Shown in pieces: positions 94-50,440 of a stretch of DNA of 64,000 nucleotides; the first letter of the stretch is position 1; each line of letters opens with the position of its first letter. Where the stretch lies: contig JANLWX010000028.1 in the NCBI GenBank assembly GCA_031364845.1, positions 5,346 to 69,345 of the forward strand, given 5' to 3'. The notes under the pieces are model-generated. The model searched no databases and was not told where the DNA came from. It worked only from the letters and a program-made list of their open reading frames with translations. Made by a program: the position numbers and the translations under genes. This DNA comes from Candidatus Eiseniibacteriota bacterium (GTDB taxonomy: Bacteria > Eisenbacteria > RBG-16-71-46).

Positions 94-1995
94 ATGAAAC
101 CGATGAAGCTCACAGGGTGGTTCGCGTGCGCGTTGATCGCGCTCGCGCTGCCCTCATGGTCCCACGCTCAGGCGCCGCGTACCGACGCCATCTGGGCGCG
201 CACCACGACACAGACGATCACGCTCGATGGTGTGCTCGATGAATCTTCATGGGCCAACGCGGAAACCTGGATCGTGCGGTACGGCGTGAACAACGGTGAT
301 CCGGGCAGCGGTTGGAAGGAAGAGGCCGGCAAGATTCCCAAGGACAGCACGTTCGCGACGCTCAAATTCCTCGTGAACGGCAACAAGCTCTATCTGGGTG
401 CCGTGGTGCGCGACAGCTCGATCGGCGGCTCGGCGACCTTCAACCGCCACGACGGGCTGCTGATGGGGATCAAGGATCACCGCGATCCGTTCGCGACGAT
501 CTCGGGTCCGGTCGAGTACCTGTATTCGTGGTGGCACCCCGAAGATCCGAATCCGGAAGCGGTCGGGAAGATGCCGGGCTTCCGCGGCTACTGGAGTTCG
601 CAGAGCGACACGATTCCGCGCACGCCGGAGCAGATCGCGGCGTGGGATGCGGTGACGAAGGTACGTGGTGGCCAGACCAACTCCGATGCGACCAACGACT
701 CGAGCTATGTCGTGGAAATGATGTTCGACGTCGGCGTGATGGGCTACACGCCGACCGCCCCGAATGGCGACATCATCGAATGGAACATCTCGGTCTATGA
801 CAACGACTGGTTCTGGCCGCTGTCGGGCCCCCGCTTCGCCAACAATCGTTCATGGTGGCAGGGGCCGTGGGGCAATCGGATGGAGATGAACGAAGTGCGC
901 ATCCACACGCGGCCGAACGTCACGGTCAGTTCGGGTGCGGTGCCATTCATCGGACCTGAAGTGCGCATCCCGAACAAGAGCGCCCAGCCGACGCCGACGA
1001 TCGACGGTTTCCTCACCGAACCGGTCTGGTCGCAGGCGGTCACGAAGGCGTTCGATCTCCGCTACGGTGACTTCGCCGTGCGCAACACCTATCCCGGTGT
1101 CATGCGCTGGCGCGCCGGCTTCTTCCAGCCGCCGGTCAACGGCGGAACCGCCCCGGTGGTCGATCCGGGCGACGCGACGATCCGGTGGTTCTACAAGGGC
1201 GACTCGCTCTACATCGGCTTCGACGTTCGCGATCAGGTGGTGCAGAGTCCCCCGGCCTTCGATCGCTGGGACGGCTTCATCGTGACGATTCAGGACACCG
1301 CCAAGACCACCGACCGCAATCGCGAGTCGCGCCGGCTCGGGTTCCATGTCGGCCCTACCGGCCTCCCGGTCGCGACCGACTACCTGCCGTTCCTGCGCGA
1401 TACGGCGTTCGCGGCAAAACTCGGACTCAAACTCAAACCCGGGACGACGGTGGACACGCTGGGCGGAAGCCCCGATCAGGGCTACACGGCCGAGTTGATG
1501 GTCAATCTGCGCCGGCTCGGGTTCCCGGCCGGATTGGGGACCAAGCCACTCTACATCGGCATCAACATGCAGGACGGCGACTCGTTCACTCCCTTCACCG
1601 ACAGCTACGGCACGCGGACCTGGTGGGGGCGTGAGTACGAGCACGAATGCTGTCCCGCGAACGCGTATTTCGATCCGCTCTACGTGAACGACGTTGGAGA
1701 CGAGATCGGTGCCGAGGCGAAACTCATCGGCAACTTCCCGAATCCGTTCCGCACCACGACCATGCTGAGGTTCACGCTGGCGGCACCGGCGCGCGTCACG
1801 CTCGAGGTCTATGACCTCCAGGGTCGCCAGGTGGCGAAGCGTGCGCTCGGGCTCCATGCTCCCGGCGTGCGTCAGGCTTCGTTCACGCGATCGGGTCTCG
1901 GCACCGGCATCTACCTGTACCGTGTGAAGCTCACGGATCCGGTGAGTGGCGCTGCGCGGGGCACGATGGCGGGCAAGATGATGGTCTTACAGTAG
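94..1995 (+). CDS. Secreted protein with two CBM9/DOMON-like carbohydrate-binding repeats and a T9SS type-A C-terminal sorting domain
   Basis: ORF 58-1995; AGGAGG at ~80-85 places the likely start at ATG 94 (MKPMKLTGWFACALIALALPSWSHA signal peptide). Repeated 'DG.LDE..W' modules. C-terminus 'FPNPF..TT..F.L......V.L.VYDL.GR.V.....G...YLYRVKL' matches the Por_Secre_tail (TIGR04183) pattern. Confidence 0.75.
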   Translation: MKPMKLTGWFACALIALALPSWSHAQAPRTDAIWARTTTQTITLDGVLDESSWANAETWIVRYGVNNGDPGSGWKEEAGKIPKDSTFATLKFLVNGNKLYLGAVVRDSSIGGSATFNRHDGLLMGIKDHRDPFATISGPVEYLYSWWHPEDPNPEAVGKMPGFRGYWSSQSDTIPRTPEQIAAWDAVTKVRGGQTNSDATNDSSYVVEMMFDVGVMGYTPTAPNGDIIEWNISVYDNDWFWPLSGPRFANNRSWWQGPWGNRMEMNEVRIHTRPNVTVSSGAVPFIGPEVRIPNKSAQPTPTIDGFLTEPVWSQAVTKAFDLRYGDFAVRNTYPGVMRWRAGFFQPPVNGGTAPVVDPGDATIRWFYKGDSLYIGFDVRDQVVQSPPAFDRWDGFIVTIQDTAKTTDRNRESRRLGFHVGPTGLPVATDYLPFLRDTAFAAKLGLKLKPGTTVDTLGGSPDQGYTAELMVNLRRLGFPAGLGTKPLYIGINMQDGDSFTPFTDSYGTRTWWGREYEHECCPANAYFDPLYVNDVGDEIGAEAKLIGNFPNPFRTTTMLRFTLAAPARVTLEVYDLQGRQVAKRALGLHAPGVRQASFTRSGLGTGIYLYRVKLTDPVSGAARGTMAGKMMVLQ

Positions 1996-2072
1996 TCGAG
2001 TCGCGGCGGTGCGGGCCCGTGGGGTCCGCACCCGCCGCATCGACACATCCCACCAAGACCCATACGAGCGCG

Positions 2073-4808
2073 ATGGAACGCCGCACCCTCACGGCCGCGA
2101 CCTGTTTCTGGGGTTCGGTCCTGGCCCTGGCATTGGGTCTCGTCATTTCTGCCGCCCCCCGCGAAGCCGTCGCGGGCACGACCGGCAAGATCACAGGCGC
2201 GGTGGTCGACGGGAAGAAGGTTCCGCTCGTCGGCGTGAACATCGCCATTCCGACTGCGCGGCTCGGGGCGATGACGGACGCGGGCGGGCGCTACGCCATC
2301 TTCAATGTCCCGGCCGGGACGTATGATGTGAAGGTCGCGATGCTCGGCTACCGGGCCACGACCATCACCGGCGTCGTCGTGTCCGCCGACAACACCACCG
2401 TGCTCGACGCCACGCTGCTCGAGGCGCCCATCGCGATGGACGAGGTCGTGGTCAGTGCACGGCGCGCGGTCGTCGATCTCAAGCTCACGAGCAACCTTGC
2501 GACCGTGAGCCGCGAGGAGATCAGCGCGCTGCCGGTGCAGGAGCTGCAGGACATCGTGAACCTCCAGGCGGGAGTGGTGTCCCAGGGCGGGGATCTGCAC
2601 TTTCGCGGCGGACGCGGAGGCGAGGTCCAGTATCAGGTCGACGGCGTCTCCGTGAACAACGCATTCGACAACAAGACGAGTCTGCGGCTCGACCGTTCGC
2701 TGCTCGAAGAGGTCCAGGTGATCAGCGGCACGTTCGATGCCGAGTATGGTCAGGCCATGAGCGGCGTGGTGAACGCGGTGCTGCGGCGCGGGACCGACCA
2801 GTTTCGCTGGGACGCCGAAGCGCTCACCGGCGGATTCGTTTTCGCGGGCGGCGACCGGCGCCAGGCCGAGTTCGACTTCCATCCGGCCGGGCTCCAGAAC
2901 TACCAGGTCAGCGTGAGCGGCCCGCTGGTGGCCAACACGACGTTCCTAATGAATGCGCGGCGCTACCGGTTCGAGGACTACTTCGATGCCACCCGCCGCT
3001 TTCTGCCGTGGCACACGGCGAGCGACGAGCCCGCGGACAAGGTCCTCGCTCCGGACGGAGATGGCCGCCGCGGAAGCCTCGGCTATTCGCGCGAATGGTC
3101 GGGATTGGCCAAGATCACGAACCGCTCGATCAAGAACCTCGAGTTGAACTATCAGGCCGTGATCAACTTCGTGGACAGCCGTCGCGCCGACTTCGCCTAC
3201 CGGCTCAATCCGGATGGATTGCCACGCCAGCGCACCACGTCGATCGCACATGGGCTCGACTGGACCCACACACTGTCCCGGTCCCGGTACTACAACCTGA
3301 GTTTTCGCCACAACTACTTCGACTATAGGGACATGGTCTACGACGACGCGCTCGACCCGCGTTATGATGCCGCCGGCCCTCCGGATCGCGTGCCGGGCTA
3401 CGAGAACGACGCAATCGTCCAGGGAGTCGATCTCGCGCGATTCAAGCAGAACACCGACGCGGTCCTGGTGAAGACGTCGTACGTCGACCAGGTGAGCGAC
3501 GACCAGCAGGTCAAGCTGGGTGCCGAGTTCCAGTGGCCGCGCGTGCGCTTCGGGGCCGACGGCGTGCTCTCCGAAGTGAGCGGCAACGACAGCACGGGAA
3601 CGTTTCTGCAGCGGAAGTTCTACGAGCCGCCGGACTTCCCCGGAATCCAGCTCTACGTTCCCTACATCGCGTCGGGGTACGTGCAGGACGATCTGGAGTG
3701 GAACGATCTGCGCTTGCGCGCCGGCGTGCGCTTCGACTACTTCAACGCGCGCGCCGGAGTGCCGAGTGATCTTGCGAACCCGGCGAACTCGATCTCGGGC
3801 GCACCGCAATCGGACTGGATCGCGACCACGCGCAAGCACTCGATCTCGCCTCGCGTCGGAGTGTCGTACCCCGTGACGAAGGACGCTGCGCTGTTCTTCG
3901 CGTATGGCCACTTTTCTCAGATGCCCGCGATCGGGGAGATCTTCCGCAACTCGGACTACCGCGTGCTCAACGACCTGCAGGCCGGTGATCCTGACTATCG
4001 CGTGATGGGCAATCCCGACATCAAGCCCGAACGCACCGTGCACTATCAGTTCGGCTACAAGCAGGCCGTCACCGACTGGCTCGGCGTCGACGTGAGCACG
4101 TTCTACAAGGACATCCGCGATCTGCTCGGCGTGGAATTCATCTCGACCTACAACGGCGCCGAGTACGCGCGGCTCACGAATGTGGACTTCGGCACGGTTG
4201 CGGGTTTCACCGTCGCCATCGACCAGCGCCGCCGCGGAATTCTGAGCAGCTCGCTCGACTACACATGGCAGCTCGCCCAGGGCAACGCGAGCAACCCGCG
4301 CGAGACGGCGACGCGCGCGGAAGCGGGCGAGGACCCGCGTCCGCGGCAGATCCCGTTCAACTGGGACCAGCGCCATACCGTGAACGCGACGGTCACCGCA
4401 TCGCGCGACAACGACTGGGTCATGAACGCGGTGGTGCGTGCCGCGAGCGGCCAGCCGTACACGCCGACCAGCGAAGTCGGATTCGGATTCGGTCTCGAGG
4501 CGAATTCCGGACGCCGCTCCGCTGCGGTCGCCGTCGACCTTGCGGCCGAGAAGATCTTCCGTTTGCGGGGCGCGGCGGCTGCGGGCTCCTCCGGTTCGGC
4601 AGCTTCGCAAGGACCGAAGATCCGCGCATTCACGCGCGTGTACAACCTGTTCGACGTCCGTTTCTTCAATGGCTACGTGTTCGACACTACCGGCAGCCCG
4701 TACTATGCGCGCGATCCGGCACGCGACGCGGCTCAGCTCGCGAATCCGCTGCGCTTCTACGCGCCACGCCGCATCGAGGTCGGGGTCAGCATGCAGGTGG
4801 GAGGATGA
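2073..4808 (+). CDS. TonB-dependent receptor-like outer-membrane protein (N-terminal carboxypeptidase-regulatory-like domain, plug, beta-barrel)
   Basis: ORF 2019-4808; internal Met MERRTLTAATCFWGSVLALALGLVISA gives a signal peptide. 'GKITGAVVDGKKVPLVGVNIAI..GRYAIFNVPAGTYDVKVAMLGYR' is CarbopepD_reg-like, followed by a plug-like region ('ISALPVQELQDIVNLQAGV') and a long barrel. There is no canonical C-terminal aromatic residue, hence the moderate confidence. Confidence 0.7.
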   Translation: MERRTLTAATCFWGSVLALALGLVISAAPREAVAGTTGKITGAVVDGKKVPLVGVNIAIPTARLGAMTDAGGRYAIFNVPAGTYDVKVAMLGYRATTITGVVVSADNTTVLDATLLEAPIAMDEVVVSARRAVVDLKLTSNLATVSREEISALPVQELQDIVNLQAGVVSQGGDLHFRGGRGGEVQYQVDGVSVNNAFDNKTSLRLDRSLLEEVQVISGTFDAEYGQAMSGVVNAVLRRGTDQFRWDAEALTGGFVFAGGDRRQAEFDFHPAGLQNYQVSVSGPLVANTTFLMNARRYRFEDYFDATRRFLPWHTASDEPADKVLAPDGDGRRGSLGYSREWSGLAKITNRSIKNLELNYQAVINFVDSRRADFAYRLNPDGLPRQRTTSIAHGLDWTHTLSRSRYYNLSFRHNYFDYRDMVYDDALDPRYDAAGPPDRVPGYENDAIVQGVDLARFKQNTDAVLVKTSYVDQVSDDQQVKLGAEFQWPRVRFGADGVLSEVSGNDSTGTFLQRKFYEPPDFPGIQLYVPYIASGYVQDDLEWNDLRLRAGVRFDYFNARAGVPSDLANPANSISGAPQSDWIATTRKHSISPRVGVSYPVTKDAALFFAYGHFSQMPAIGEIFRNSDYRVLNDLQAGDPDYRVMGNPDIKPERTVHYQFGYKQAVTDWLGVDVSTFYKDIRDLLGVEFISTYNGAEYARLTNVDFGTVAGFTVAIDQRRRGILSSSLDYTWQLAQGNASNPRETATRAEAGEDPRPRQIPFNWDQRHTVNATVTASRDNDWVMNAVVRAASGQPYTPTSEVGFGFGLEANSGRRSAAVAVDLAAEKIFRLRGAAAAGSSGSAASQGPKIRAFTRVYNLFDVRFFNGYVFDTTGSPYYARDPARDAAQLANPLRFYAPRRIEVGVSMQVGG

Positions 4809-4810
4809 CG

Positions 4811-7800
4811 ATGCCGTGGAGCACACGCTGCGCCGTGCGCGCGGGGGCGTTCGTGATCGCAGCCTGCTGGGCGGCCCTTTCGCCGGCCACGACAGCGTTC
4901 GCGGCCTCGCCGCCGCCGGCCGAGCGCGGGCGCATCGACGCCGAGCGCTCCGGGATTCACGATGCCAACAACCTGCGCACGCTGTTCTGGAACTTCGGCA
5001 TGGTTGGCGACTATCCGCGCGACCCGGGGAATGTCGATCTGTCGGTGTTCCACTCGGGCGAAGCCCCGAAGGGCAGCGGCATGAACTACTCGGACGGCAT
5101 CACCCCGTTCGTGCTCGCCAAGGTGCGCCAGCCGGGCGGGGCGGACGCGTACATCATGGAGACCGGCTATCGCGAGCGGCAGATCGAAAGCCCCTACACC
5201 AACAACATCATGCGCTTCGAGCCACGGCCGGGATACTTCCAGGCCAGTCCCGACACCAACAAGGGCCGGTCCCCCGCGATCAGCAACGATCCACGGACGT
5301 GGCCGCACTCGTGGCCGGATCGTGTCACCGATCCCGACGATCCGGGGTGGCGCGGCTCCTGGAACGGATACTTCGGCAAGCGTCCGGCGGCGGATCAGGA
5401 GTCGTTCACGGTGATGGACGACAATTTCTACGACGTATGGGAGTCCGCGCCCGACAGCACCGACCCGACGCGTCACGGGCTCGGCCTCAAGGTCGAGGTG
5501 CGCGGATTCCAATGGTCGAACCCGCAGGCCGGCAACGTGATCTTCTGGCACTACGACATCACGAACGAAGGCACGACGACCTACGACGACAACGTGATCT
5601 TCGGTCTCTACATGGACTCGGGCGTCGGCGGTCCCGCGCTGTCGTGCGACGGCGTGTTCGAGTCGGACGACGACAACGCGTTCTTCGACAAGTCGCTCGG
5701 CCTGGACCTCGTCTACACGTGGGACACCTACGGTCATGGCGTCGACCTGGCGAGCCGCTGCAGCGAGACGGGGTACATGGGCTATGCCTACCTCGAGACC
5801 CCGGGCAATCAATTCGACGGGCTGGACAATGATCTCGACGGGGTCGTCGACGAGAAGCGCGACGGCGGCCCCGGTCTGCGCATCGAGGGCCGCGACGCGA
5901 TCCGCGCTTATGTCGAGGCGAATTACGATACGGCGCGCTTCGAGGCGTTCTATGGCTCGCTCGAGACCCGGCCTGCGTATCGCGCGGGCGTGTGGTTCAC
6001 CGGGGACGAGGACATGGACTGGTTCGCGGATCTGTTCGACGTGGGAGCCGACGGCGTGCGCGAGACCGGTGATGCCGGCGAGGGCGACGGCATCCCGACC
6101 GATGGAGAAACGAACTTCGATCGCACCGACCTCAACGAATCCGACCAGATCGGCCTCACCGGGTTCAAGATGAACCGCATCAAGGCGGGTCCCGAAAATC
6201 CCGATCCGCGTGTGGATGGCATCCTGTTCTTCACCAACAGTCAGGATTGGCCGCGGCGGCTCTACGAACACTTCACGAACCCGAATCCGCCCGCGCGCTT
6301 CGACTCCGCGGTCGCCGCGAACTACAACATCGGATTCCTGTTCGCCTCGGGCCCGTTCCGGCTCGAAGCCGGCCGGCGCGAGCGATTCAGCCTGGCACTC
6401 GCCTACGGCAGCGATCTCTCCGAGCTGCGCGAGACGGTGCACACGGTTCAGCAGATCTACAACGCGAACTATCAGTTCGCCGTCCCCCCGACACAGCCGA
6501 CACTCACCGCCGAGGCGGGCGACGGCTACGTGCGGTTGTCGTGGGACGACATCGCCGAGCGCTCGATCGATCCCGTTTCGTTCCTTCAGGACTTCGAAGG
6601 CTACCGGATCTATCGATCGACCGACCCCGAATTCCGCGATCCGCGCGTGCTCACCAGCGGGCGCGGCAATCCGCTGCCGTCGAACGGCAAGCCGATCGTC
6701 CAGTTCGACCTGCGGGACGGCACGCGCGGTTATTCGCGCAAGACGGTGGACGGCGTGTCCTACTTCCTCGGCAACGAGACCGGCATCACCCACACGTGGA
6801 CCGACACCACCGTGACAAACGGGCAGGCGTACTACTACGCGGTCACGGCCTACGACTACGGCTCCGCGGCCGAGGTGCCCGACTCGGTGGCCTACTATCC
6901 CTCGGAGAACGCGATCTCGGTGTCGATCACCCCGCGTGGCGGCCTGATCCTGCCGAAGAACGTCGTGGCGGTCCGTCCGAATCCTCGCGTCAGCGGTTTC
7001 GTCCGGGCCGCCGCCGACAGCGCGACCCAGGTCGCGGGCCGCGGGACGGGAGACGTGCGGGTCGAGGTCGTGAATTCGAATCTCGTGCCTCAGGATCATC
7101 TGTTCAAGATCACGTTCGCCGTGCCCGATTCCGACAGCATTCGCGCGACGTCTTATGCCCTGACCGACAGCAGCACGCACGAGACGTTCTTTCGCAATGG
7201 CCTGGATCTCGACGGGCGCGGCATCGGCCCGGCGGCGACCGGGTTGCTGCCGATCGTGATCAATCCCCTGATGACGACCGTGGATGTCGCCCGTACCGGC
7301 TTCGCAACGGGCAGTCCGACCAATACGCGACTCAAGGCCGCCTATCAGCCGGCGCAATCGCCGAATCTGCGCCGGCCCGGCTATCCCGACGACATTTCGA
7401 TCACGTTCGACAATGTCGTGCGCGACACGGGAATCGCAGTGTTCCCGGTGCCGGCGCGCAACGCGAAGTTCGTGGTCGTCGCGCATGCGCCCGAAGGCGA
7501 CCTGCGGCTCGATTTCCGTTTTCGCGACTCGGACCTCGATGGCACGCTGAGCCGTCCCGACGAGTTCATCGACATCCTCACGTTCGTCAACACCACGGCC
7601 CGCGATTCGCAGATCACCTGGCGCGTGCAACTCGACACGCTCGGTCAGGGCGCGCGCGGACCGATCGTGCCGCCGCGACTCGGCGACCGTTTCGACCTCG
7701 CGCTCTCGCGTCCGCTCAGCGGCGACGATGCGTTCGTGTTCTCGACCACCGCCCAGCGCATCGACCCCGATCGCGCGCAGGCCGACTGGAATCAGAAGCC

Positions 7801-8101
7801 GTACGTGATTCCCAATCCCTACGTGGGTGCCGCGGCGTTCGAGCCGCAGCGCTTCGCGATCTCCGGGCGCGGTGAACGCCGCATGGAGTTCCGCGCGATT
7901 CCGCAGGGTGGCGTGATCCGCATCTACACCGTGCGCGGCGATCTCGTGCAGACGTTGCGGCAGAACGGTTCGCTCGAGGGCTTCGTCGCGTGGAACCTGC
8001 GCACGAAAGACAATATCGACGTGGCTCCGGGTCTCTACGTCTTCCACGTCGACGCGCCGGGATTCGGCGAACACGTCGGCAAGTTCGCGATCATCCGATG
8101 A
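4811..8101 (+). CDS. Large secreted protein with Asp-rich Ca-binding (TSP3-like) repeats and a T9SS type-B-like C-terminal domain
   Basis: Long ORF 4265-8101. GGAGG at 4799-4803 then ATG 4811 (MPWSTRCAVRAGAFVIAACWAALS signal); ATG 4805 also possible. It overlaps the upstream stop. Contains 'DNDLDGVVDE', 'FTGDEDMDWFADLFDVGADGVRETGDAGEGDGIPTDGETNFDRTD'. C-terminus '..IYTVRGDLV..L....AWN......V..GLYVFHV....GKFAIIR' resembles the type-B CTD (TIGR04131). Confidence 0.75.
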   Translation: MPWSTRCAVRAGAFVIAACWAALSPATTAFAASPPPAERGRIDAERSGIHDANNLRTLFWNFGMVGDYPRDPGNVDLSVFHSGEAPKGSGMNYSDGITPFVLAKVRQPGGADAYIMETGYRERQIESPYTNNIMRFEPRPGYFQASPDTNKGRSPAISNDPRTWPHSWPDRVTDPDDPGWRGSWNGYFGKRPAADQESFTVMDDNFYDVWESAPDSTDPTRHGLGLKVEVRGFQWSNPQAGNVIFWHYDITNEGTTTYDDNVIFGLYMDSGVGGPALSCDGVFESDDDNAFFDKSLGLDLVYTWDTYGHGVDLASRCSETGYMGYAYLETPGNQFDGLDNDLDGVVDEKRDGGPGLRIEGRDAIRAYVEANYDTARFEAFYGSLETRPAYRAGVWFTGDEDMDWFADLFDVGADGVRETGDAGEGDGIPTDGETNFDRTDLNESDQIGLTGFKMNRIKAGPENPDPRVDGILFFTNSQDWPRRLYEHFTNPNPPARFDSAVAANYNIGFLFASGPFRLEAGRRERFSLALAYGSDLSELRETVHTVQQIYNANYQFAVPPTQPTLTAEAGDGYVRLSWDDIAERSIDPVSFLQDFEGYRIYRSTDPEFRDPRVLTSGRGNPLPSNGKPIVQFDLRDGTRGYSRKTVDGVSYFLGNETGITHTWTDTTVTNGQAYYYAVTAYDYGSAAEVPDSVAYYPSENAISVSITPRGGLILPKNVVAVRPNPRVSGFVRAAADSATQVAGRGTGDVRVEVVNSNLVPQDHLFKITFAVPDSDSIRATSYALTDSSTHETFFRNGLDLDGRGIGPAATGLLPIVINPLMTTVDVARTGFATGSPTNTRLKAAYQPAQSPNLRRPGYPDDISITFDNVVRDTGIAVFPVPARNAKFVVVAHAPEGDLRLDFRFRDSDLDGTLSRPDEFIDILTFVNTTARDSQITWRVQLDTLGQGARGPIVPPRLGDRFDLALSRPLSGDDAFVFSTTAQRIDPDRAQADWNQKPYVIPNPYVGAAAFEPQRFAISGRGERRMEFRAIPQGGVIRIYTVRGDLVQTLRQNGSLEGFVAWNLRTKDNIDVAPGLYVFHVDAPGFGEHVGKFAIIR

Positions 8102-9129
8102 GCACTCTTCGCAGAGTTCACGCGCGGATCGTCGTTGCACTGTGCGTGAGCGCCGCGCTCGCGACCGCCGTGCCCGCTGCGGCGCAGAGCAAGACCGGGA
8201 CGACCATCGGGGCGTTCCTGCTGATCGAGCCGAGTGCCCGCAGCGCCGGCATGGGCAACACCGGTGTGACGCTCGAAGGACTCGATGCCGCGTACTTCAA
8301 TCCCGCGGCGATCGGACATGCCGAGGGGCGCGCGCTTGCGTTCGGGCACAGCGAATGGTTCGCGGGGATCAAGCACGAGCACGTCGCGGGCGCGCTGCCG
8401 ATCGGCCGGTTCGGCAACGTCTACGCCGCGGTCACGTCGCTCAACTCAGGGGACATCGACGTGCGGACCGTCACGCAGCCGCAGGGAACCGGCGAGCGTT
8501 ACCATGTCTCCGACATCGCGATCGGCCTCGGCTACGGACGCCAGATCACCGACCGTTTCTCGGCCGGGCTCCAGGTGACCTACGTTCAGGAGACGATCTG
8601 GAACACCACGCTCTCGACCGGAACCATGAGCTTCGGCACGCTCTACCAGATCTCGGACAACGGCCTGCGGCTCGGGGCGAGCCTGTTGAACTTCGGTACC
8701 ATGGGCAAATTCTCGGGGCGCGACCTGCGGGTGACCTACGATGGCGACCCGGACCGATTCGGTGACAATGGCCAGCTTCCCGCCGAAATCTTCACCGACG
8801 CCTTCTCCGTGCCGGTGCTGTTCCGGGTCGGAGTCGGGCTTCCGGTGCGGCTCAATCCCGTGACACAGTTGAACCTCGCGCTCGATGCGCTCCATCCCAA
8901 CGACAACACCGAGAGCGTGAGCGCGGGCGCCGAGCTGGCGTATCGCAAGCGGTTCGCGCTGCGGGCGGGATACCAGAAGGCGGGAGAACAGGACTCGGAA
9001 GTCGGATTCACCGCGGGCGGCGGCGTGGGCGGGGCGTACGATGTGTACGTCTACACGCTCGACTACGCATGGGCCGCGCACGGCAGGCTCGGCAGCACCC
9101 ACCGGATCGCGGTGGGATTGACGTTCTGA
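8098..9129 (+). CDS. PorV/PorQ-family outer-membrane beta-barrel protein (T9SS-associated), translationally coupled to the upstream type-B CTD protein
   Basis: ATG 8098 overlaps the upstream stop (ATGA). Signal peptide MSTLRRVHARIVVALCVSAALATAVPAAAQ. Post-signal motif 'GAFLLIEPSARSAGMGNTGVTLEGLDAAYFNPAAIG' fits the ARxxGMGGA...NPA signature of PorV/PorQ-like proteins. The family assignment is from memory of the motif. Confidence 0.65.
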   Translation: MSTLRRVHARIVVALCVSAALATAVPAAAQSKTGTTIGAFLLIEPSARSAGMGNTGVTLEGLDAAYFNPAAIGHAEGRALAFGHSEWFAGIKHEHVAGALPIGRFGNVYAAVTSLNSGDIDVRTVTQPQGTGERYHVSDIAIGLGYGRQITDRFSAGLQVTYVQETIWNTTLSTGTMSFGTLYQISDNGLRLGASLLNFGTMGKFSGRDLRVTYDGDPDRFGDNGQLPAEIFTDAFSVPVLFRVGVGLPVRLNPVTQLNLALDALHPNDNTESVSAGAELAYRKRFALRAGYQKAGEQDSEVGFTAGGGVGGAYDVYVYTLDYAWAAHGRLGSTHRIAVGLTF

Positions 9130-9204
9130 AATGATCTCATCGCGCTTCGCTTACCGGCCGGACGGCCGGGAGACCGCCGGGGCCACATCACTGAAGAGGC
9201 ACCT

Positions 9205-10788
9205 ATGAAACGGCACATACTGTTCCTGAGCGCGCTGCTGATGCTCGGGGCATCGAGCGCGAACGCGATCACCACCGAAGCGCTGTTGGACTCGGTCCAG
9301 CACGCCTCGTTCCGGTACTGCTGGTATCAAGCCAATCCCGCCAATGGTCTGGTCCGCGACCGCAGCCAGTCGGGCTCCCCGGCGAGCACCGCGGCGGTCG
9401 GCTTCGCCCTTTCTGCGATCACGGTTGGAATCGATCACGAGTGGATCACGCGTGAGCAGGGACGCGACCGGGTGAGGACCACGCTCGAGACGCTGTGGAG
9501 CAAGCCGCAAGGCACCGGCGTGAGCGGATTCATCGGGTACAAGGGTCTGTTCTATCACTGGCTCGACATGAACACCGCGCTGAGGATGTGGAACTCGGAA
9601 GTATCCACGATCGACACCGGGCTCCTGTTCGCGGGCATCCTGCAGGCGCGTGAATACTTCACGGGCACCGACACGACGGAGACCCGGATCCGCGCGCTCG
9701 CCGATTCGATCACCTATCGAGCGGACTGGAAGTTCATGCAGAACTCGGGTTCTCCGCTCAAGCATGGGTGGACTCCGGAATCGGGATTCATCGTCTACAA
9801 CTGGACGGGCTACAACGAAGCCATGGTCATGTACGTCATTGCCATGGGATCGCCGACTCATCCGCCCACCAACGGCAGTCCCTGGACGAGTTGGACCAGC
9901 ACCTACTCGTGGCAGACCCACTACGGCCAGTCGTACGTGAACTTCCCGCCGCTGTTCGGCCACCAGTATTCGCACTGCTGGATCGACTTCCGCTACATCA
10001 ACGACGCGTACATGACGAATCGCGGCATCACGTACTTCGAGAACTCGCGCCGCGCCACGCTCGCCCAGCGTTCGTACGCGATCGCGAACCCGAACTTCAA
10101 GATCGGCTACAGCGACAGCCTGTGGGGGCTGACCGCGAGCGACGGCCCCGGCAACTCCTACAACGCGCGCGGCGCGCCGCCCGCGCAGAACGACGATGGA
10201 ACCATCACGCCGACGGCACCGCTGAGTTCGATACCCTTCGCGCCCGAAGCCACGATCCCGGTGATGCACAAGCTGTGGAACACCTATAAGACGCAGTTGT
10301 GGGGGCCTTACGGTTTCCGCGACGCGATGAGTCTCCAGGCGAACCCCGACTGGTTCGACCCCGACTATCTCGGCATCGATCAGGGGCCGATCGTGCTCAT
10401 GATCGAGAACTACCGCAACGGCTCGGTGTGGAATCGCTTCATGCTCAACCCGCAGGTGAAGGCGGGTCTTGCGGCGGCGGGATTCACGCGCACGGTGACC
10501 GGCGTCGAGCAGCCGCTGTTCGACGGCGCGGTCGAGTTGCTCGCGAACGAACCCAATCCGTTCCACGACGCGACCACGCTGCGATTCCGTCTCGGCCGTG
10601 AGAGTCACGTGCGCCTGACGGTGTTCGATGTGGGCGGGCGCGAGGTCGCGCGGGTCGCCGATCGCGTGTTCCCGGCGGGACTCCATCGGGTTCCGCTCGA
10701 AGGCGCGCGCCTGGGCAGCGGCATCTATTACACACGTCTCGAAGGTCAGGGCCGGACCGATGTCCGGAGAATCGTGTTGCTCCACTAG
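9205..10788 (+). CDS. GH144-like (DUF3131/glycoamylase-like) endo-beta-1,2-glucanase candidate with a T9SS type-A CTD
   Basis: Signal MKRHILFLSALLMLGASSANA. 'FRYCWYQANPANGLVRD', 'GFIGYKGLFYHWLDMNT', 'FGHQYSHCWIDFRYINDAYMT', 'FENSRRATLAQRSYAI' and 'YLGIDQGPIVLMIENYRNG' are typical of the GH144/DUF3131 family. C-terminus 'EPNPFHDATTLRF.L......L.VFDVGGREV...........G......G.YYTRL' is CTD-like. Confidence 0.8.
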   Translation: MKRHILFLSALLMLGASSANAITTEALLDSVQHASFRYCWYQANPANGLVRDRSQSGSPASTAAVGFALSAITVGIDHEWITREQGRDRVRTTLETLWSKPQGTGVSGFIGYKGLFYHWLDMNTALRMWNSEVSTIDTGLLFAGILQAREYFTGTDTTETRIRALADSITYRADWKFMQNSGSPLKHGWTPESGFIVYNWTGYNEAMVMYVIAMGSPTHPPTNGSPWTSWTSTYSWQTHYGQSYVNFPPLFGHQYSHCWIDFRYINDAYMTNRGITYFENSRRATLAQRSYAIANPNFKIGYSDSLWGLTASDGPGNSYNARGAPPAQNDDGTITPTAPLSSIPFAPEATIPVMHKLWNTYKTQLWGPYGFRDAMSLQANPDWFDPDYLGIDQGPIVLMIENYRNGSVWNRFMLNPQVKAGLAAAGFTRTVTGVEQPLFDGAVELLANEPNPFHDATTLRFRLGRESHVRLTVFDVGGREVARVADRVFPAGLHRVPLEGARLGSGIYYTRLEGQGRTDVRRIVLLH

Positions 10789-10841: not shown

Positions 10842-13800
10842 ATGCCAAAGATCGAGGCGGCGACCACGCTGCCTCGCGAGGACAACACGACCTCGCGGGG
10901 CAGTCTCGTCGTTTCGCCCGGTGCGATCCTCTCCAACGGGCGGCTCTCGGTTGCGATCACCGGACGCGGCACCGGTTTCACTTCTCACGGCGGGTCCCTG
11001 CTCACGCGCTGGGCCGGCGATCCGGTCGAGGACCGCGACGGCAGCTTCGTCTATCTGCGTGACCTCGACTCGCGTGAGGTGTGGACTGCGGGTACCGAGC
11101 CGCTAGCCGGTGTTCCCGACGCCTACGAATCCACGTGGCGCCCCGGCGTGTTCACGATCGAGCGGCGCGACCACGGCATCGAGACGAAGCTCGAAGTCGC
11201 CGTGATGCCGGACGCCGATGCCGAGGTGCGGCGCGTCACGTTGCGCAATCGCTCGCGTCGCGCGCGGCGCATCGAGATCACGAGCTTCGCGCCGGTCGTG
11301 ATTCACGACGCCGCGGCTGACGCCTCGCATCCGGCGTTCTCACGGTTGTTCGTCCAGACCGAATTCGACTCCTCAACGCGCGCGCTGGTCGTGTCCCGGC
11401 GGCCGCGGCATCCGGACGAGCAGCATCCGTGGCTGGTACACGTGATGACCGGCGCGGGCCGGCTCGAGCACGAAACCGACCGCGACCGCTTCATCGGCCG
11501 CGGCGGCACCACGGCAGCACCGCGCGCGCTTTCGTCGCGCGGGCGGCTTTCGGGAACCACCGGCAACGTGCTCGACCCGATCGTGAGCCTGCGGCGGGTC
11601 GTGAAGCTCGAGCCCGGCGGGATCGCGCACGTGTTCTTTGGGCTGGGTGCGGCGTTCGATCGCGAAGCCGCGCTGGAACTGGCGCGCGTGGTGCAGCGCG
11701 ACGCGGATGCGGCGTTCGACCTCGCGGAGCACGCGGAGGTTGCCCGGCTGGCACTCGCGGGCGTGACGCCCGCACTCGAAGAACGCCGGCAGGCGCTCGC
11801 GGTCGCGACGTTGTACGGGCGGTTCGTGGAATCCGTTGCCGGTAGGGTGGCGGCGGGCACGAAGCCCGTGTCCATCACCGATCAACTCCATGCGGCCGGG
11901 ACCGCGACCCCGTCGCCGAGCGTGAATCGCGTCCGCATCGCCGCGCACGCCACCGCGCACCACAACGGCGTCGCGCGGCTCCCCGCGCAGCGCTCCTCAC
12001 GCGCGACCTCGCGGCGGCGCACCGCGACGCCCGAGCCGCTCCAGTTCTGGAACGGCTACGGCGGGTTTTCGGCCGAAGGCACCGAGTATGTCATCCGACT
12101 CGCCCACCATAAGGAGCTTGGTCTCTCGCTGCCGCCGGCACCGTGGGTCAACGTGCTCGCGAACGAGAGCTTCGGTGCGCTCGTGAGCGAGACCGGCGCG
12201 GGATGCACGTGGAGCCGCAACAGCCGGGAGCATCGCCTGACGACGTGGTCCAACGACCCGCTGCTCGATCCGCACGGCGAGGCGCTCTACCTGCGCGACG
12301 AAGCGAGCGGCGAGTCGTGGTCGCCGCTGCCCGGTCCGCGACCCGCGGCCGCCGATTACGAAATGCGCCACGGTTTCGGCGTGAGCCGCTGCACCCATTC
12401 GAGCCACGGGCTCGAACAGGTGACCGAGATCTTCGTGCCTGCGCGCGAGCCGGTGAAGATCGTGCGCCTGCGGATCACGAATGCATCGGCGGCCCCGAGG
12501 CGCCTCGCGGTGTTCTCGTATCAACGGCTGGTGCTGGGATCGGACACCCGCGATCACGCGCGCACGGTGGAAGTCGAGCAGGACCGTGACTCAGGAATTC
12601 TGCTCGCGCGCAATCCCGCGTCGGGACCCTACGCCGGGGGCATCGCGTTCTCCACGGTCGTCGCATCCGGCGGCGTTTCTGCTTCGCACGTCACGCGCAA
12701 TCGCGAGGCGTTCCTCGGAGTGAACGGCAATCCGTCCGACCCCAGAGCGCTCCACGGTGGCACGCTTCGCGATGTTCCGGCCGGCGGCGATCCGTGTTTC
12801 GCGCGGCAGATCGTGATCGAGATCGCGCCGTCGGCGGTGTTCGAATGCGCGTTCCTGCTCGGCGAGACGATGGATCTGTCGAGCGTGCGCGAACTCGTCG
12901 AGCGCCTGGGCACCGGGGGTGCGATCGAAGCCGCGCTGCTCGCAACCCGCGAAGTGTGGGCCGAGCGCGTCTCGGCGGTCGCGATCCGCACGCCGCGCCC
13001 GGCGATCGATCTGATGGTGAACGGCTGGCTCGCCTACCAGACGCTCGCGTGCCGGCTGTGGGGGCGCACCGCGTTCTACCAGTCGGGCGGAGCGCTCGGG
13101 TTCCGCGACCAGCTCCAGGACGCGGCGTCGCTGCTCATGTGGTCGCCCGGTATTTTGCGCGAGCAGATCCTGACGCACGCCAGCCACCAGTTCGTGGAAG
13201 GCGACGTGCTCCACTGGTGGCACCCGCCCGATGCGCGCGGGATTCGCACGCGCTTCGCCGACGATTTGCTGTGGCTGCCGTGGCTCACCGCCGGATATGT
13301 CACGGCCACCGGCGATGCGGCGGTATTGGACGAGCAGACGCGCTATGTCACTGCCCGCGCACTCGAGGACGGCGAGGACGAAGCATTTCTCGTCCCCGAG
13401 GATTCCGGTGAGAGCGGTGATGTCTACGAGCACTGCTGCCGGGCGATCGACCGATCGCTCGCGACCGGTATCCACGGCCTGCCGCTGTTCGGCACCGGTG
13501 ACTGGAACGACGGCATGAATCGCGTGGGCCGCGAAGGCCGCGGCGAAAGCGTGTGGATGGGCTTCTTCCTCTACACCGTGCTTGGCGAGTTCCTCGCGCT
13601 GTGCGAACGGCGCGCCGACCGCGCGCGGATCGAGCGCTATGTCGCGCATCGTGAACATCTGAAGACCGCGCTCAACGATGCCGGATGGGACGGCGGCTGG
13701 TACCGGCGCGGCTACTACGACGACGGCACCGCGCTCGGCACGAAGGACGGCGACGAGTGCCGCATCGACGCGCTGGCTCAGGCGTGGGCGGTGTTGTCGG

Positions 13801-50439: not shown

Positions 50440-50440
50440 C

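What the first reader, a model, noticed from the sequence alone, without database searches (positions are those of the whole stretch)
94..10788. Type-A and type-B T9SS-style C-terminal sorting domains plus a translationally coupled PorV/PorQ-like OMP in a high-GC genome
Three secreted proteins end in T9SS CTD-like tails. Two are type-A-like ('NPF..TT..F.L......L.VYD..GR.V'; genes 94-1995 and 9205-10788) and one is type-B-like ('..IYT.RGDLV....AWN....V..GLYVF.V....GKFAIIR'; gene 4811-8101). The type-B protein is followed by an ATGA-overlapping OMP gene (8098-9129) with the PorV/PorQ-like 'ARSAGMGNTG...YFNPAAIG' N-terminal motif. This mirrors the Bacteroidota rule that type-B cargo genes are paired with a dedicated OM partner (SprF/PorP). 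A second such OMP (38424-39740) also exists. Finding the cargo/partner arrangement in a ~70% GC lineage supports a functional T9SS outside Bacteroidota, and links a glycan-degrading enzyme (GH144) to T9SS export.
Basis: partly seen in the sequence, partly recalled or inferred. Interest (0 to 1): 0.6.

Follow-up and report, generated by a model that had tools for sequence, protein, structure and literature searches.

The report
Transporter, surface protein, PorV-like anchor cassette
A sugar-polymer (beta-1,2-glucan) utilisation operon is built around an undescribed three-gene outer-membrane cassette: a TonB-dependent transporter, a large uncharacterised surface protein and a PorV-like barrel. 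The same cassette recurs across many phyla related to Bacteroidota and may be their alternative to the well-known SusC/SusD system.

Summary

**Confirmed**
- The genes and the ATGA overlap at 8098-8101 are real.
- Two tails (genes 94-1995 and 9205-10788) pass the T9SS type-A model TIGR04183: 30.0 and 23.7 bits against a cut-off of 23.
- Gene 8098-9129 is a PorV/PorQ-family barrel: 176.6 bits against 90.

**Not confirmed**
- The "type-B" tail of gene 4811-8101 is not type B. It gets no TIGR04131 or CHU_C hit.
- Across 25 diverse relatives this tail matches the retained CTDs of PorZ and PorU (25/25) and type A (21/25).
- The partner barrel is not PorP/SprF.
- The "second OMP" (38424-39740) is not supported.

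**What is there**
- The region is a beta-1,2-glucan utilisation operon.
- Its outer-membrane core is a cassette of three genes: a TonB-dependent transporter, a 1,096-aa protein with no Pfam or NCBIfam model, and a PorV/PorQ-family barrel.
- The cassette recurs in this order, tightly spaced, in about 60 loci. Their record titles name Ignavibacteria, Calditrichia, Marinimicrobia, KSB1, Krumholzibacteriia and Rhodothermales.
- It sits beside varied CAZymes that mostly carry type-A CTDs.

**Best reading (inferred)**
The large protein is a T9SS-delivered surface partner of the transporter. It is held on its own PorV-like barrel by an uncleaved CTD, giving a SusD-independent PUL core.

No T9SS core genes lie in the window. 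The rest of the genome could not be tested.

The parts
94..1995 (+). Gene A: secreted 633-aa protein with a signal peptide, a weak CBM9-like region and a type-A T9SS CTD (residues ~548-612, nt ~1735-1992). Probably a surface glycan-binding protein.
   Evidence: TIGR04183 30.0 bits vs cut-off 23, 34.7 on the isolated tail. CBM9_1 E = 0.005. In distant cassettes 12 of 45 upstream genes carry CBM9_1 (best 1.8e-18) and 26 of 45 carry Por_Secre_tail.
2073..4808 (+). Gene B: TonB-dependent transporter with an N-terminal CarboxypepD_reg domain, a plug and a 22-strand-type barrel. It is not a SusC/RagA member by score.
   Evidence: PF00593 87 bits, Plug 41.5, CarbopepD_reg_2 56.9. TIGR04056 gives only 57.6 vs 368. 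A homologue lies upstream of C in nearly all related loci. The B-to-C gap has a median of 7 nt under a start-choice rule that favours small gaps.
4811..8101 (+). Gene C (alternative start 4805): 1,096-aa secreted protein of an unannotated family. Signal peptide; conserved N-terminal beta-rich region with DxDxDG acidic motifs (~34-560); FN3-like domain (~561-710); variable beta-sandwich region (~711-995); highly conserved CTD (~996-1096, nt 7799-8098).
   Evidence: No Pfam hit at E <= 1 and no NCBIfam hit near any cut-off. 3,290 representative clusters at E <= 1e-3. AF2 model pLDDT 85.7, pTM 0.80. Foldseek: PorZ 5m11 E = 4.4e-6, GH94 phosphorylases prob 1.00. Tails match the PorZ and PorU CTDs in 25/25, type A in 21/25 and type B in 0/25. 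Conservation profile.
8098..9129 (+). Gene D: 343-aa PorV/PorQ-family (FadL-like) outer-membrane barrel. Its start overlaps C's stop (ATGA).
   Evidence: NF033709 176.6 bits vs 90. PorQ equivalog 86 vs 220 and PorV equivalog 61.8 vs 250, both below cut-off. PorV 6h3i_F E = 2.3e-6. 56/56 cassette homologues hit NF033709. D follows C directly in 57 of 61 loci, median gap 13 nt.
9205..10788 (+). Gene E: GH144 endo-beta-1,2-glucanase with a type-A T9SS CTD (residues ~450-524).
   Evidence: PF10091 261 bits. 8xul E = 5e-110 and 5gzh E = 5.9e-55. TIGR04183 23.7 bits vs cut-off 23, marginal; 28.3 on the isolated tail.
10842..14483 (+). Gene F (alternative GTG start 10788): GH94-type phosphorylase. 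It resembles the C-terminal domain of cyclic beta-1,2-glucan synthase.
   Evidence: PF06165 and PF17167. 8rf9 and 8rf0 E ~2e-246.
14492..15934 (+). Second GH144, without a CTD and with a lipoprotein-like N-terminus. The start is approximate.
   Evidence: PF10091 272.9 bits. Translation shown.
15931..18937 (+). ABC sugar importer: solute-binding lipoprotein 15931-17223 and permeases 17220-18119 and 18116-18937. All junctions are 4-nt overlaps by coordinates.
   Evidence: Translations and coordinates. Not scanned against Pfam in the window. The syntenic SBP_bac_1 and two BPD_transp_1 genes in L003 are annotated.
18934..22191 (+). F5/8 type C (discoidin) plus six-hairpin glycosidase-like protein.
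   Evidence: PF00754 58.2 bits; Bac_rhamnosid6H weak. The same gene is present in L003.
22196..23896 (-). GH1 beta-glucosidase, convergent with the operon.
   Evidence: PF00232 513 bits. GH1 also lies next to the cassette in L002.

Best explanation
Positions 94-22191 hold one plus-strand operon for the use of beta-1,2-glucan.

**Proposed flow through the operon**
- Extracellular enzymes and binders are exported by a type IX secretion pathway through type-A CTDs. These are gene A and the GH144 gene E.
- Oligosaccharides cross the outer membrane through the TonB-dependent transporter B.
- They are trimmed in the periplasm by the second GH144.
- They are imported by the ABC system.
- In the cytoplasm they are phosphorolysed or hydrolysed by GH94 and GH1.

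**The new part: the B-C-D core**
- C is a ~1,100-aa secreted protein of an unannotated but very large family.
- Its C-terminal domain is a type-A-class CTD that most resembles those of PorZ and PorU. Those are the two T9SS proteins whose CTDs are not cleaved but stay bound to the PorQ and PorV barrels.
- D is a PorV/PorQ-family barrel encoded immediately after C.

**Proposed mechanism**
- C is exported by the T9SS.
- Its uncleaved CTD docks on its cognate barrel D.
- This holds C on the cell surface next to transporter B.
- The conserved N-terminal region of C works with the transporter.
- The variable middle region, which is a beta-sandwich here and a Reg_prop propeller in some relatives, binds the glycan.
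- Functionally this would be a SusD/SGBP-like partner built from T9SS parts.

**What is shown and what is inferred**
- Shown: gene content, family assignments, CTD class, cross-phylum conservation of the B-C-D order and spacing, and the variety of CAZymes around it.
- Inferred: export by the T9SS, CTD retention on D, physical association with B, and glycan binding.
For: **Family assignments**
- D is PorV/PorQ family: 176.6 bits vs 90; PorV 6h3i E = 2.3e-6.
- All 56 cassette D homologues hit NF033709, with PorQ the next best model.

**CTD class of C**
- The window tail hits the PorZ C-terminus at E = 1.9e-4.
- Of 25 diverse tails, 25 hit PorZ (best 4e-8), 25 hit PorU (best 5.5e-6), 21 hit TIGR04183 and 0 hit type B.
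- A family profile searched against PDB finds only the PorU CTD.
- Foldseek places PorZ 5m11 among the top hits of both models.

**The CTD is the most conserved part of C**
- Among relatives below 50% identity it is 49% identical, with entropy 1.04.
- The middle region is 20-24% identical.
- That fits a fixed protein partner rather than a disposable signal.

**Conserved cassette**
- The 80 loci were retrieved with C alone.
- Homologues of B and D flank C in nearly all loci with enough flank.
- D follows C directly in 57 of 61 loci, with a median gap of 13 nt.
- The B-to-C gap has a median of 7 nt.

**Generic role in glycan use**
- Neighbouring genes of distant cassettes carry Por_Secre_tail in 26/45 (upstream) and 36/67 (downstream).
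- They also carry CBM9, CBM20, GH3, GH9, GH16, GH43, GH66, GH94 and alpha-amylase domains.
- Two cassettes occur in one MAG (L035 and L042).

**The variable region of C**
- It holds Reg_prop propeller repeats in 6 of 28 long relatives.
- From my own knowledge, this repeat type is found in PorZ and in glycan-sensing hybrid two-component sensors.

**Literature**
- The PorU and PorZ CTDs stay bound to PorV and PorQ, and cognate PorV-like barrels are proposed to protect CTDs from cleavage (PMC10202324).
- A FadL-like barrel, BamG, serves as a platform for surface proteins (PMC12578637).
- The Rhodothermus marinus alginate PUL lists a TonB receptor, a T9SS type-A sorting-domain protein and a PorV/PorQ family protein, in that order (PMC9530828).

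**Substrate of this locus**
- GH144 and GH94 matches.
Against: - No T9SS core gene (SprA/Sov, PorK/L/M/N, PorU, PorZ) was found in the 64-kb window. The genome could not be searched.
- The window copy of C does not itself reach any TIGR04183 hit. Its PorZ and PorU matches are far below those models' whole-protein cut-offs, because only the CTD aligns.
- No direct evidence exists for C-D or C-B contact. No complex prediction could be run.
- The N-terminal fold assignment is weak: TM-scores are at most 0.23 for the GH94 supersandwich hits.
- The most conserved part of C besides the CTD is the N-terminal region with invariant acidic residues. That could equally be a catalytic or a structural calcium-binding site.
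- Taxon labels come from MAG record titles, and some are visibly unreliable.
- The 4-nt overlap is common throughout this operon. It adds nothing beyond operon membership.
Confidence: 0.55

Rival explanations
1. C and D form a locus-dedicated T9SS attachment module, like PorZ-PorQ. Their job would be to receive and retain the CTD-bearing enzymes and binders of the same locus (A, E and their equivalents) beside the transporter. C itself would not bind the glycan or cap the transporter.
For: The best structural and profile matches of C are PorZ and PorU. Some family members carry Reg_prop propellers in the variable region. More than half of the flanking genes carry type-A CTDs.
Against: The PorZ and PorU similarity is confined to the CTD and generic Ig/FN3 strings (TM <= 0.12). 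No Cys or His is invariant across 117 members, so a C25-type sortase is excluded. The module is multiplied per genome and tied to a transporter, which a general sorting function would not need.
Confidence: 0.2
2. One reading: C is a type-B CTD cargo, and D is its PorP/SprF-like dedicated partner, as for SprB-SprF.
For: Cargo and barrel genes are adjacent and overlapping. The tail ends in ...GKFAIIR, which superficially resembles type-B endings.
Against: There is no TIGR04131 hit at E <= 10 and no CHU_C hit. 0 of 25 tails hit type B while 21 of 25 hit type A. D hits PorV/PorQ models only and gives no PorP_SprF hit at E <= 1.
Confidence: 0.03
3. C is an enzyme, for example a new glycoside hydrolase, lyase or transglycosylase. 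It would use the invariant acidic residues of its N-terminal region, and D would be merely a FadL-type channel that happens to be co-transcribed.
For: There are many invariant Asp, Glu and Trp residues in residues 160-450. Foldseek gives prob 1.00 hits to GH94 phosphorylases and a dextran dextrinase.
Against: The cassette sits next to CAZymes for at least six chemically different glycans: starch, cellulose, laminarin, dextran, xylan/arabinan and beta-1,2-glucan. One conserved catalytic site is unlikely to serve them all. The acidic residues lie in DxDxDG-type motifs typical of calcium sites. The GH94 similarity, given C's largely beta-strand N-terminal region, probably concerns the non-catalytic supersandwich, with TM <= 0.23. 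The extreme conservation of the CTD is left unexplained.
Confidence: 0.1
4. The arrangement is ordinary. It would be an unremarkable TonB-dependent receptor operon with two hypothetical outer-membrane proteins, with no link to T9SS function; the CTD-like tails would be Ig-like (FlgD-like) folds used for something else in lineages that lack a T9SS.
For: No T9SS core genes are in the window. FlgD_ig also hits these tails weakly. Published surveys restrict the T9SS and its CTDs to Bacteroidota (PMC10202324, and Abby et al. 2016 as cited in PMC5837995).
Against: The tails reach the curated TIGR04183 cut-off. The cassette also occurs in loci whose record titles name Rhodothermales and Balneola; by my own knowledge these are Bacteroidota with a T9SS. 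BLAST evidence for a T9SS in Ignavibacteriae, Chlorobi and Fibrobacteres is reported (PMC5837995). PorV/PorQ-family scores are strong in all 56 D homologues.
Confidence: 0.12

Closest known systems
PorZ-PorQ and PorU-PorV pairs of the Porphyromonas gingivalis T9SS attachment complex
   Same: A secreted protein has a type-A-class CTD that is not removed and that docks on a PorV/PorQ-family 14-strand barrel (PMC10202324). C's tail matches the PorZ and PorU CTDs best. D scores best with the PorQ model after the family model. Some C relatives carry Reg_prop propeller repeats; by my own knowledge PorZ has the same repeat type.
   Different: C has no C25 peptidase domain and no invariant Cys or His. 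In this window it has no propellers. It has a ~530-aa conserved N-terminal region unknown in PorU or PorZ. The pair is co-transcribed with a TonB-dependent transporter, is multiplied per genome and is embedded in glycan-utilisation loci. D is below the PorV and PorQ equivalog cut-offs.
Type-B CTD cargo with PorP/SprF-family partner (SprB-SprF; PG1035-PorP)
   Same: The logic is the same: the cargo gene is clustered with a dedicated outer-membrane barrel that is thought to anchor it, and the CTD is not cleaved (PMC10202324).
   Different: The CTD family differs: type-A class, not TIGR04131/PF13585. The barrel family differs: PorV/PorQ, not PF11751.
SusC/SusD core of Bacteroidota polysaccharide utilisation loci
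   Same: A TonB-dependent transporter with an N-terminal CarboxypepD_reg domain is encoded next to a surface partner. The unit is repeated in a genome and surrounded by substrate-specific CAZymes and binding proteins.
   Different: B fails the SusC/RagA model (57.6 vs 368). C has no SusD-like (TPR) fold or Pfam hit, and it is not a lipoprotein. Surface localisation would come from the T9SS plus a barrel anchor rather than from lipoprotein export. A third gene (D) is obligatory.
BamG-BamH of the Bacteroidota BAM complex
   Same: A FadL/PorV-like 14-strand barrel is used as an attachment platform for a surface-exposed protein (PMC12578637). 13 of 56 D homologues also hit the BamG model weakly.
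   Different: BamH is a lipoprotein wedged into the barrel by its N-terminus. Here the proposed contact is a C-terminal CTD. The context is nutrient uptake, not OMP assembly.
Rhodothermus marinus alginate PUL (tonB - hypA - hypB)
   Same: [quoted passage not shown]
   Different: hypA is only 2,181 nt. Its homology to C was not checked here, because the sequence is not held. The authors list the three genes by annotation in the figure legend; the passages I read attach no function to them.

Membership tests
T9SS type-A CTD (TIGR04183 / PF18962) | The C-terminal ~70-80 aa domain scores above the curated cut-off. | tested here: met
   Gene A 30.0 bits and gene E 23.7 bits vs cut-off 23. E clears the cut-off by only 0.7 bits. 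Isolated tails give 34.7 and 28.3. Both are below Pfam PF18962's gathering score: 19.4 and 17.5 vs 27.
T9SS type-A CTD (TIGR04183 / PF18962) | The same test, for the tail of gene C. | tested here: inconclusive
   The window tail has no TIGR04183 hit at E <= 10. However, 21 of 25 diverse family tails hit it at E <= 1 (best 1.8e-5), and 25 of 25 hit the CTD portions of the PorZ and PorU models.
T9SS type-B CTD (TIGR04131 / PF13585 CHU_C) | The C-terminal domain matches the type-B model. | tested here: not met
   No TIGR04131 hit at E <= 10 on the isolated tail. No CHU_C hit at E <= 1 on full-length C. 0 of 25 family tails hit it.
PorV/PorQ family (NF033709) | The full-length barrel scores above the family cut-off. 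| tested here: met
   Gene D 176.6 bits vs 90, covering 36-343 of 343. 56/56 cassette homologues hit it. PorV 6h3i_F E = 2.3e-6.
PorV (NF033710) or PorQ (NF033711) equivalogs | The score is above the equivalog cut-off. | tested here: not met
   PorQ 86 vs 220; PorV 61.8 vs 250; PorV2 40.1 vs 325.
PorP/SprF (PF11751) | A match to the PorP_SprF model. | tested here: not met
   The Pfam scan of D at E <= 1 returned only PorV (19.6 bits) and Toluene_X.
SusC/RagA TonB-linked OMP (TIGR04056) | The full-length score is above the cut-off. | tested here: not met
   Gene B 57.6 vs 368.25, and only the N-terminal residues 39-161 align. The generic TonB-dependent receptor domains are met: PF00593 87 bits and Plug 41.5.
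SusD-like | A SusD/RagB Pfam domain or a TPR-like helical fold, plus a lipoprotein signal. | tested here: not met
   C has no Pfam hit at E <= 1. The AF2 model is largely beta-strand. The signal peptide shows no lipobox cysteine.
PorU sortase (NF033707 / Peptidase C25) | A gingipain-like catalytic domain with a Cys/His dyad. | tested here: not met
   Only positions ~1027-1075 of the model (its CTD) align, E = 0.086. No invariant Cys or His in 117 sequences.
PorZ (NF052228) | Two beta-propellers plus a CTD, with a score above 260. | tested here: not met
   14.3 bits, CTD only. No propeller in the window copy. Reg_prop repeats occur in 6 of 28 long relatives.
GH144 endo-beta-1,2-glucanase | Homology to the PF10091 catalytic domain and to characterised members. 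| tested here: met
   PF10091 261 bits. 5gzh E = 5.9e-55 and 8xul E = 5.1e-110. Catalytic residues were not checked.
Functional T9SS | Core genes sprA/sov, porK/L/M/N (gldK-N) and porU/porZ/porV are present in the same genome. | not testable with these tools
   None were found among the 40 window ORFs scanned with Pfam.

The most novel reading that the evidence does not exclude
B-C-D would be a previously unrecognised type of outer-membrane glycan-import machine. It would be the ancestral or alternative PUL core of the FCB superphylum outside Bacteroidia. A T9SS-exported ~1,100-aa protein, held by its uncleaved CTD on a dedicated PorV-like barrel, would play the SusD/SGBP role for a TonB-dependent transporter. 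This would directly couple type IX secretion to nutrient uptake.
Probability: 0.45. Interest if true: 0.85.

Novelty: new variant of a known kind. Interest (0 to 1): 0.7.

Why it matters
**Why the cassette matters**
- PULs are defined by SusC/SusD pairs, so automated PUL detection misses lineages without SusD.
- A conserved transporter / CTD-protein / PorV-like-barrel cassette would give a marker for PUL-like loci in many lineages. By record title these are Ignavibacteria, Calditrichia, Marinimicrobia, KSB1, Eisenbacteria, Krumholzibacteriia and Rhodothermales.
- From my own knowledge, these groups are abundant in soils, sediments and the ocean and are important for carbon turnover.

**New roles it would assign**
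- PorV/PorQ-family barrels would gain a role as dedicated anchors.
- Non-cleaved type-A CTDs would gain a role outside the core T9SS.

**A large unannotated family**
- The C family has 3,290 representative clusters at 50% identity.
- It has no Pfam or NCBIfam model.

**It is testable**
- Candidate cultured carriers are Rhodothermus marinus, Melioribacter roseus, Ignavibacterium album and Caldithrix abyssi.
- Their carrier status is inferred only from family- or genus-level MAG titles and, for R. marinus, from a published locus map (PMC9530828).

**The original finding taken alone is modest**
- Type-A CTDs and PorV-family genes in FCB candidate phyla are already visible in database annotations.

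Tried and rejected
1. **Type-B CTD for gene C.** Rejected.
2. **PorP/SprF identity for D.** Rejected.
3. **The "second PorV-like OMP" at 38424-39740.**
   - No Pfam or NCBIfam hit.
   - Only a C-terminal BLASTP match and hhalign probability 57%.
   - Left as a remote beta-barrel at best.
4. **C as a divergent PorU sortase.** Rejected: there is no peptidase domain and no invariant Cys or His.
5. **First AF2 model from 32 close homologues.** The N-terminal 560 residues were unusable, with mean pLDDT 58.6. It was replaced by a 117-sequence alignment, giving pLDDT 85.7.
7. **Sequence and profile searches of C against PDB.** They gave only an FN3 fragment and the PorU CTD.
8. **Source contig and organism.** They could not be recovered.
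   - The exact-protein look-up of P0001 failed.
   - Only a 2.9-kb Logan contig carries D.
9. **Promoter and terminator scan.** Uninformative.
10. **Literature searches.**
    - Nothing was found for the trio, for a T9SS in Eisenbacteria, or for SusD-less PULs in Ignavibacteria.
    - The one exception is the uninterpreted R. marinus map.
11. **The ATGA overlap as evidence of a special C-D link.** Rejected, because 4-nt overlaps are common across the operon. The evidence that counts is cross-phylum adjacency.

Full report
**1. The observation**

- The window is GC-rich: 59-71% in 2-kb windows.
- ORFs exist at the stated positions.
  - Gene A is 94-1995.
  - Gene B is 2073-4808.
  - Gene C is 4811-8101, with an in-frame ATG at 4805 that overlaps B's stop.
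  - Gene D is 8098-9129; its ATG overlaps C's TGA in the sequence ATGA.
  - Gene E is 9205-10788.
- All five begin with plausible signal peptides, as read from the translations.
- Two tails pass the curated type-A model TIGR04183: 30.0 bits (A) and 23.7 bits (E, marginal) against a cut-off of 23.
  - On the isolated tails the scores are 34.7 and 28.3.
  - Both are below Pfam PF18962's gathering score.
- D is a PorV/PorQ-family barrel.
  - NF033709 gives 176.6 bits against 90.
  - It is below the PorQ, PorV and PorV2 equivalog cut-offs.
  - It matches Flavobacterium johnsoniae PorV (6h3i_F) at E = 2.3e-6.
- E is a GH144.

**2. What is not confirmed**

- C's tail is not type B.
  - It has no TIGR04131 hit even at E <= 10 on the isolated 100-aa tail.
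  - It has no CHU_C hit.
  - The tail instead matches the last ~65 positions of the PorZ model (E = 1.9e-4) and weakly those of PorU and FlgD.
- I cut the last 105 residues from 25 family members that are only 36-70% identical to the window tail. Each was scanned alone.
  - 25/25 hit the PorZ C-terminus (best 4e-8).
  - 25/25 hit the PorU C-terminus (best 5.5e-6).
  - 21/25 hit TIGR04183 (best 1.8e-5).
  - None hit type B.
- A family profile searched against all PDB sequences finds only the PorU CTD and an FN3 fragment.
- D gives no PorP_SprF hit.
- The "second OMP" (38424-39740) has no Pfam or NCBIfam hit.
  - It resembles D only over its C-terminal ~150 residues: BLASTP 26% identity and hhalign probability 57%.

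**3. What the locus is**

Scanning the remaining ORFs with Pfam, reading 15.9-18.9 kb and matching to PDB shows a single plus-strand operon for beta-1,2-glucan:

| Gene | Coordinates | Assignment |
|---|---|---|
| A | 94-1995 | CBM9-like protein with CTD |
| B | 2073-4808 | TonB-dependent transporter with CarboxypepD_reg and plug |
| C | 4811-8101 | Unannotated 1,096-aa protein with CTD |
| D | 8098-9129 | PorV/PorQ-family barrel |
| E | 9205-10788 | GH144 with CTD |
| F | 10842-14483 | GH94 phosphorylase |
| - | ~14492-15934 | Second GH144, without CTD |
| - | 15931-18937 | ABC binding protein and two permeases |
| - | 18934-22191 | Discoidin / six-hairpin protein |
| - | 22196-23896 (minus strand) | Convergent GH1 |

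- F resembles the C-terminal domain of cyclic beta-1,2-glucan synthase (8rf9, E ~2e-246).
- The ABC genes were identified from their translations and from synteny with L003. They were not scanned against Pfam.
- The same gene set, with a LacI regulator, surrounds C homologues on other contigs.
- No SprA, PorK/L/M/N, PorU or PorZ family was hit in the scanned window ORFs.

**4. Gene C is the surprise**

- It has no Pfam hit at E <= 1 and no NCBIfam hit near any cut-off.
- The family is nevertheless very large.
  - 2,727 proteins at E <= 1e-5 appear in the word-indexed search. The top 120 are 64-84% identical over the full length, and all are labelled "hypothetical".
  - In the exhaustive search of 50%-identity representatives there are 3,290 clusters at E <= 1e-3 and 525 at E <= 1e-30. 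Lengths run from ~1,000 to 1,600 aa.
- The named close hits are mostly "Candidatus Eisenbacteria" MAGs. That is my inference for the origin of the window. The source record itself could not be recovered.

**5. Conservation of the neighbourhood**

- I scanned one genome per species with an alignment of 26 diverse C homologues. Nothing from B or D was used. This returned 80 loci.
- Their record titles name Krumholzibacteriia, Calditrichia, Ignavibacteria/Melioribacteraceae, Rhodothermales/Balneola, Marinimicrobia, KSB1, Stahlbacteria and assorted "Bacteroidetes" MAGs.
- tblastn with the window's proteins shows a B homologue upstream and a D homologue downstream of C in nearly every locus with enough flank. 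A few loci have the order B-D-C (L034, L040, L057).
- D follows C directly in 57 of the 61 loci where both ends are visible.
  - The median gap is 13 nt.
  - 42 gaps are <= 30 nt.
  - 9 are overlaps.
- The B-to-C gap has a median of 7 nt. The start-choice rule I used favours small gaps.
- All 56 extracted D homologues hit NF033709, with PorQ the next best model.
- 4-nt overlaps occur at several other junctions of the window's operon. The cross-phylum adjacency carries the weight, not the overlap.

**6. The cassette is generic, not specific to beta-1,2-glucan**

I took the nearest same-strand ORFs around the cassettes in the distant loci L014-L083 and scanned them with Pfam.

- Upstream ORFs (45):
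  - 26 carry Por_Secre_tail.
  - 12 carry CBM9_1.
  - Others carry alpha-amylase, GH43, CBM6, CBM4_9, FG-GAP or peptidase M28 domains.
- Downstream ORFs (67):
  - 36 carry Por_Secre_tail.
  - 9 carry CBM20.
  - 4 carry GH3.
  - 3 each carry GH66, GH94 and GH16.
  - 2 each carry GH9 and alpha-amylase.
- One MAG contributes two cassettes (L035 and L042).
- B-C-D, often preceded by an A-like CBM9/CTD protein, therefore behaves like the constant core of variable PUL-like loci whose enzymes are T9SS-type cargo.

**7. Anatomy of C**

- With a 117-sequence alignment, AlphaFold2 gives mean pLDDT 85.7 and pTM 0.80.
- The model shows:
  - a signal helix;
  - a large, largely beta-strand N-terminal region with three helical inserts (~34-560);
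  - an FN3-like domain (~561-710);
  - two beta-sandwich domains (~711-995);
  - a CTD sandwich (~996-1096).
- Foldseek against PDB returns three kinds of hit.
  - FN3/Ig strings.
  - PorZ (5m11, E = 4.4e-6, prob 0.96).
  - GH94 phosphorylases and a dextran dextrinase (8ho7, 6ggy, 9ju0) at prob 1.00 but TM <= 0.23. I read these as a supersandwich-like N-terminal fold. This assignment is weak.
- Invariant residues across 117 sequences are mostly Asp, Glu, Gly, Trp and Pro, many in DxDxDG-type motifs. No Cys, His or Ser is invariant. That excludes a PorU-type peptidase.
- Among relatives below 50% identity, the CTD is the most conserved region: 49% identity, entropy 1.04. The 711-995 region is the least conserved: 20-24%, entropy ~2.1.
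- In long relatives the variable region holds Reg_prop propeller repeats in 6 of 28. From my own knowledge, this repeat type builds PorZ and the glycan-sensing domains of hybrid two-component sensors.

**8. Mechanism**

- Established knowledge from a T9SS review (PMC10202324):
  - PorU and PorZ are T9SS substrates whose CTDs are not cleaved.
  - The PorU CTD stays bound to PorV and the PorZ CTD to PorQ.
  - The authors speculate that cognate PorV-like barrels protect CTDs from cleavage.
  - Type-B cargo is similarly anchored by PorP/SprF proteins.
- A FadL-like barrel serving as a platform for surface proteins also has a precedent in BamG (PMC12578637).
- My best explanation has three parts:
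  - C is exported by the T9SS.
  - C is held on D by its conserved, uncleaved CTD.
  - C acts at the surface together with transporter B, with the variable middle region binding the glycan. This is a SusD/SGBP-like function built from T9SS parts.
- The family assignments, CTD class, synteny and CAZyme context are shown. Export, retention on D, contact with B and glycan binding are inferred.
- The main rival is that C-D is a locus-specific attachment station for the neighbouring CTD enzymes. The data do not exclude it.

**9. Comparison with what is known, and novelty**

- The arrangement shares logic with PorZ-PorQ and PorU-PorV, with type-B cargo plus PorP/SprF, and with SusC/SusD. It fails the membership tests for each of the specific families (see the table).
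- I found no paper that describes the trio.
- The only trace is a locus map of the Rhodothermus marinus alginate PUL. [quoted passage not shown] I could not check that hypA is a C homologue.
- Reviews still describe CTD proteins as restricted to Bacteroidota (PMC10202324). One paper notes BLAST evidence for a T9SS in Chlorobi, Fibrobacteres and Ignavibacteriae (PMC5837995).
- I rate this a new variant of known kinds (PUL core; CTD-barrel anchoring), not a categorically new system.

**10. Verdict**

It mis-assigned both families and missed the transporter link.
- The original claim alone is of modest interest.
- The conserved, unannotated B-C-D cassette behind it is of considerable interest, and it can be tested in cultured organisms.
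- The key uncertainties are the absence of any T9SS core gene in the window and the lack of any direct evidence for the proposed contacts.

Noticed in passing
window 4805-4808, 8098-8101, 15931-15934, 17220-17223, 18116-18119, 18934-18937: Four-base start/stop overlaps recur at six gene junctions of the same operon. At B/C it applies only if the alternative start 4805 is used. ATGA was read directly at B/C and C/D; the other four are 4-nt overlaps by coordinates. Translational coupling looks like a general habit of this operon, not a special mark of the C/D pair.
   Followed up: yes
window 38424-39740 (+): Signal-peptide-bearing ORF ending in ...GLSFYH, with no Pfam or NCBIfam hit. It has only a remote C-terminal similarity to the PorV/PorQ-family barrel (hhalign probability 57%). 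It lies between pyrF (37449-38210) and an ECF sigma/anti-sigma pair, and is probably an unrelated or very divergent outer-membrane barrel.
   Followed up: partly
window 40476-42637 (+): An ECF sigma factor (40476-41072) is followed by an anti-sigma-like protein with a zf-HC2 motif and a CarboxypepD_reg domain (41069-42637). The same N-terminal domain type starts the transporter B.
   Followed up: no
window 46000-50500: A patch of lower GC (0.59-0.61 against ~0.68 around it) contains an 876-aa right-handed beta-helix, pectate-lyase-like protein (47809-50439). It could be horizontally acquired.
   Followed up: no
window 51300-64000: An exopolysaccharide/O-antigen-type cluster. It holds several NAD-dependent epimerases/dehydratases, a UDP-glucose dehydrogenase (53397-54911), a Wza-like Poly_export+SLBB protein (56321-58036), a Wzy_C O-antigen-ligase-like protein (59274-60614, minus strand) and dTDP-4-dehydrorhamnose 3,5-epimerase (62662-63192, minus strand).
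   Followed up: no
window 23676-25394 (-) and 28309-30633 (-): A Ser/Thr protein kinase fused to TPR repeats, and an FHA-domain protein fused to DUF1684, lie just downstream of the glucan operon. An overlapping 787-aa ORF (29571-31934, minus strand) has no hits and may be spurious.
   Followed up: no
loci L014-L083, genes flanking the B-C-D cassette: SurA-like PPIC-type peptidyl-prolyl isomerase genes sit next to the cassette in 12 of 112 neighbouring ORFs: 7 upstream and 5 downstream. From my own knowledge, a PPIase co-purifies with the SprA-PorV translocon in F. johnsoniae, and PPIases are parts of the Bacteroidota BAM dome (PMC12578637). A chaperone role for cassette assembly is possible.
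   Followed up: no
proteins P0149, P0205, P0242 and other 1,200-1,600-aa relatives of gene C: Long family members carry inserted Reg_prop (two-component regulator propeller) repeats in the region that is variable in the family (6 of 28 scanned). The middle of the protein is evidently a swappable module.
   Followed up: partly
loci L034, L040, L057 (also L019, L025): A minority of loci have the order transporter - PorV-like barrel - C, or have C and D separated by several kb. The three genes stay linked, but the order is not absolutely fixed.
   Followed up: no
one search hit list (P0006, P0073): Some close homologues are labelled Candidatus Limnocylindria (Chloroflexota) or Saccharimonadaceae (Patescibacteria). 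This is implausible for outer-membrane proteins and is probably due to MAG binning or labelling errors.
   Followed up: no
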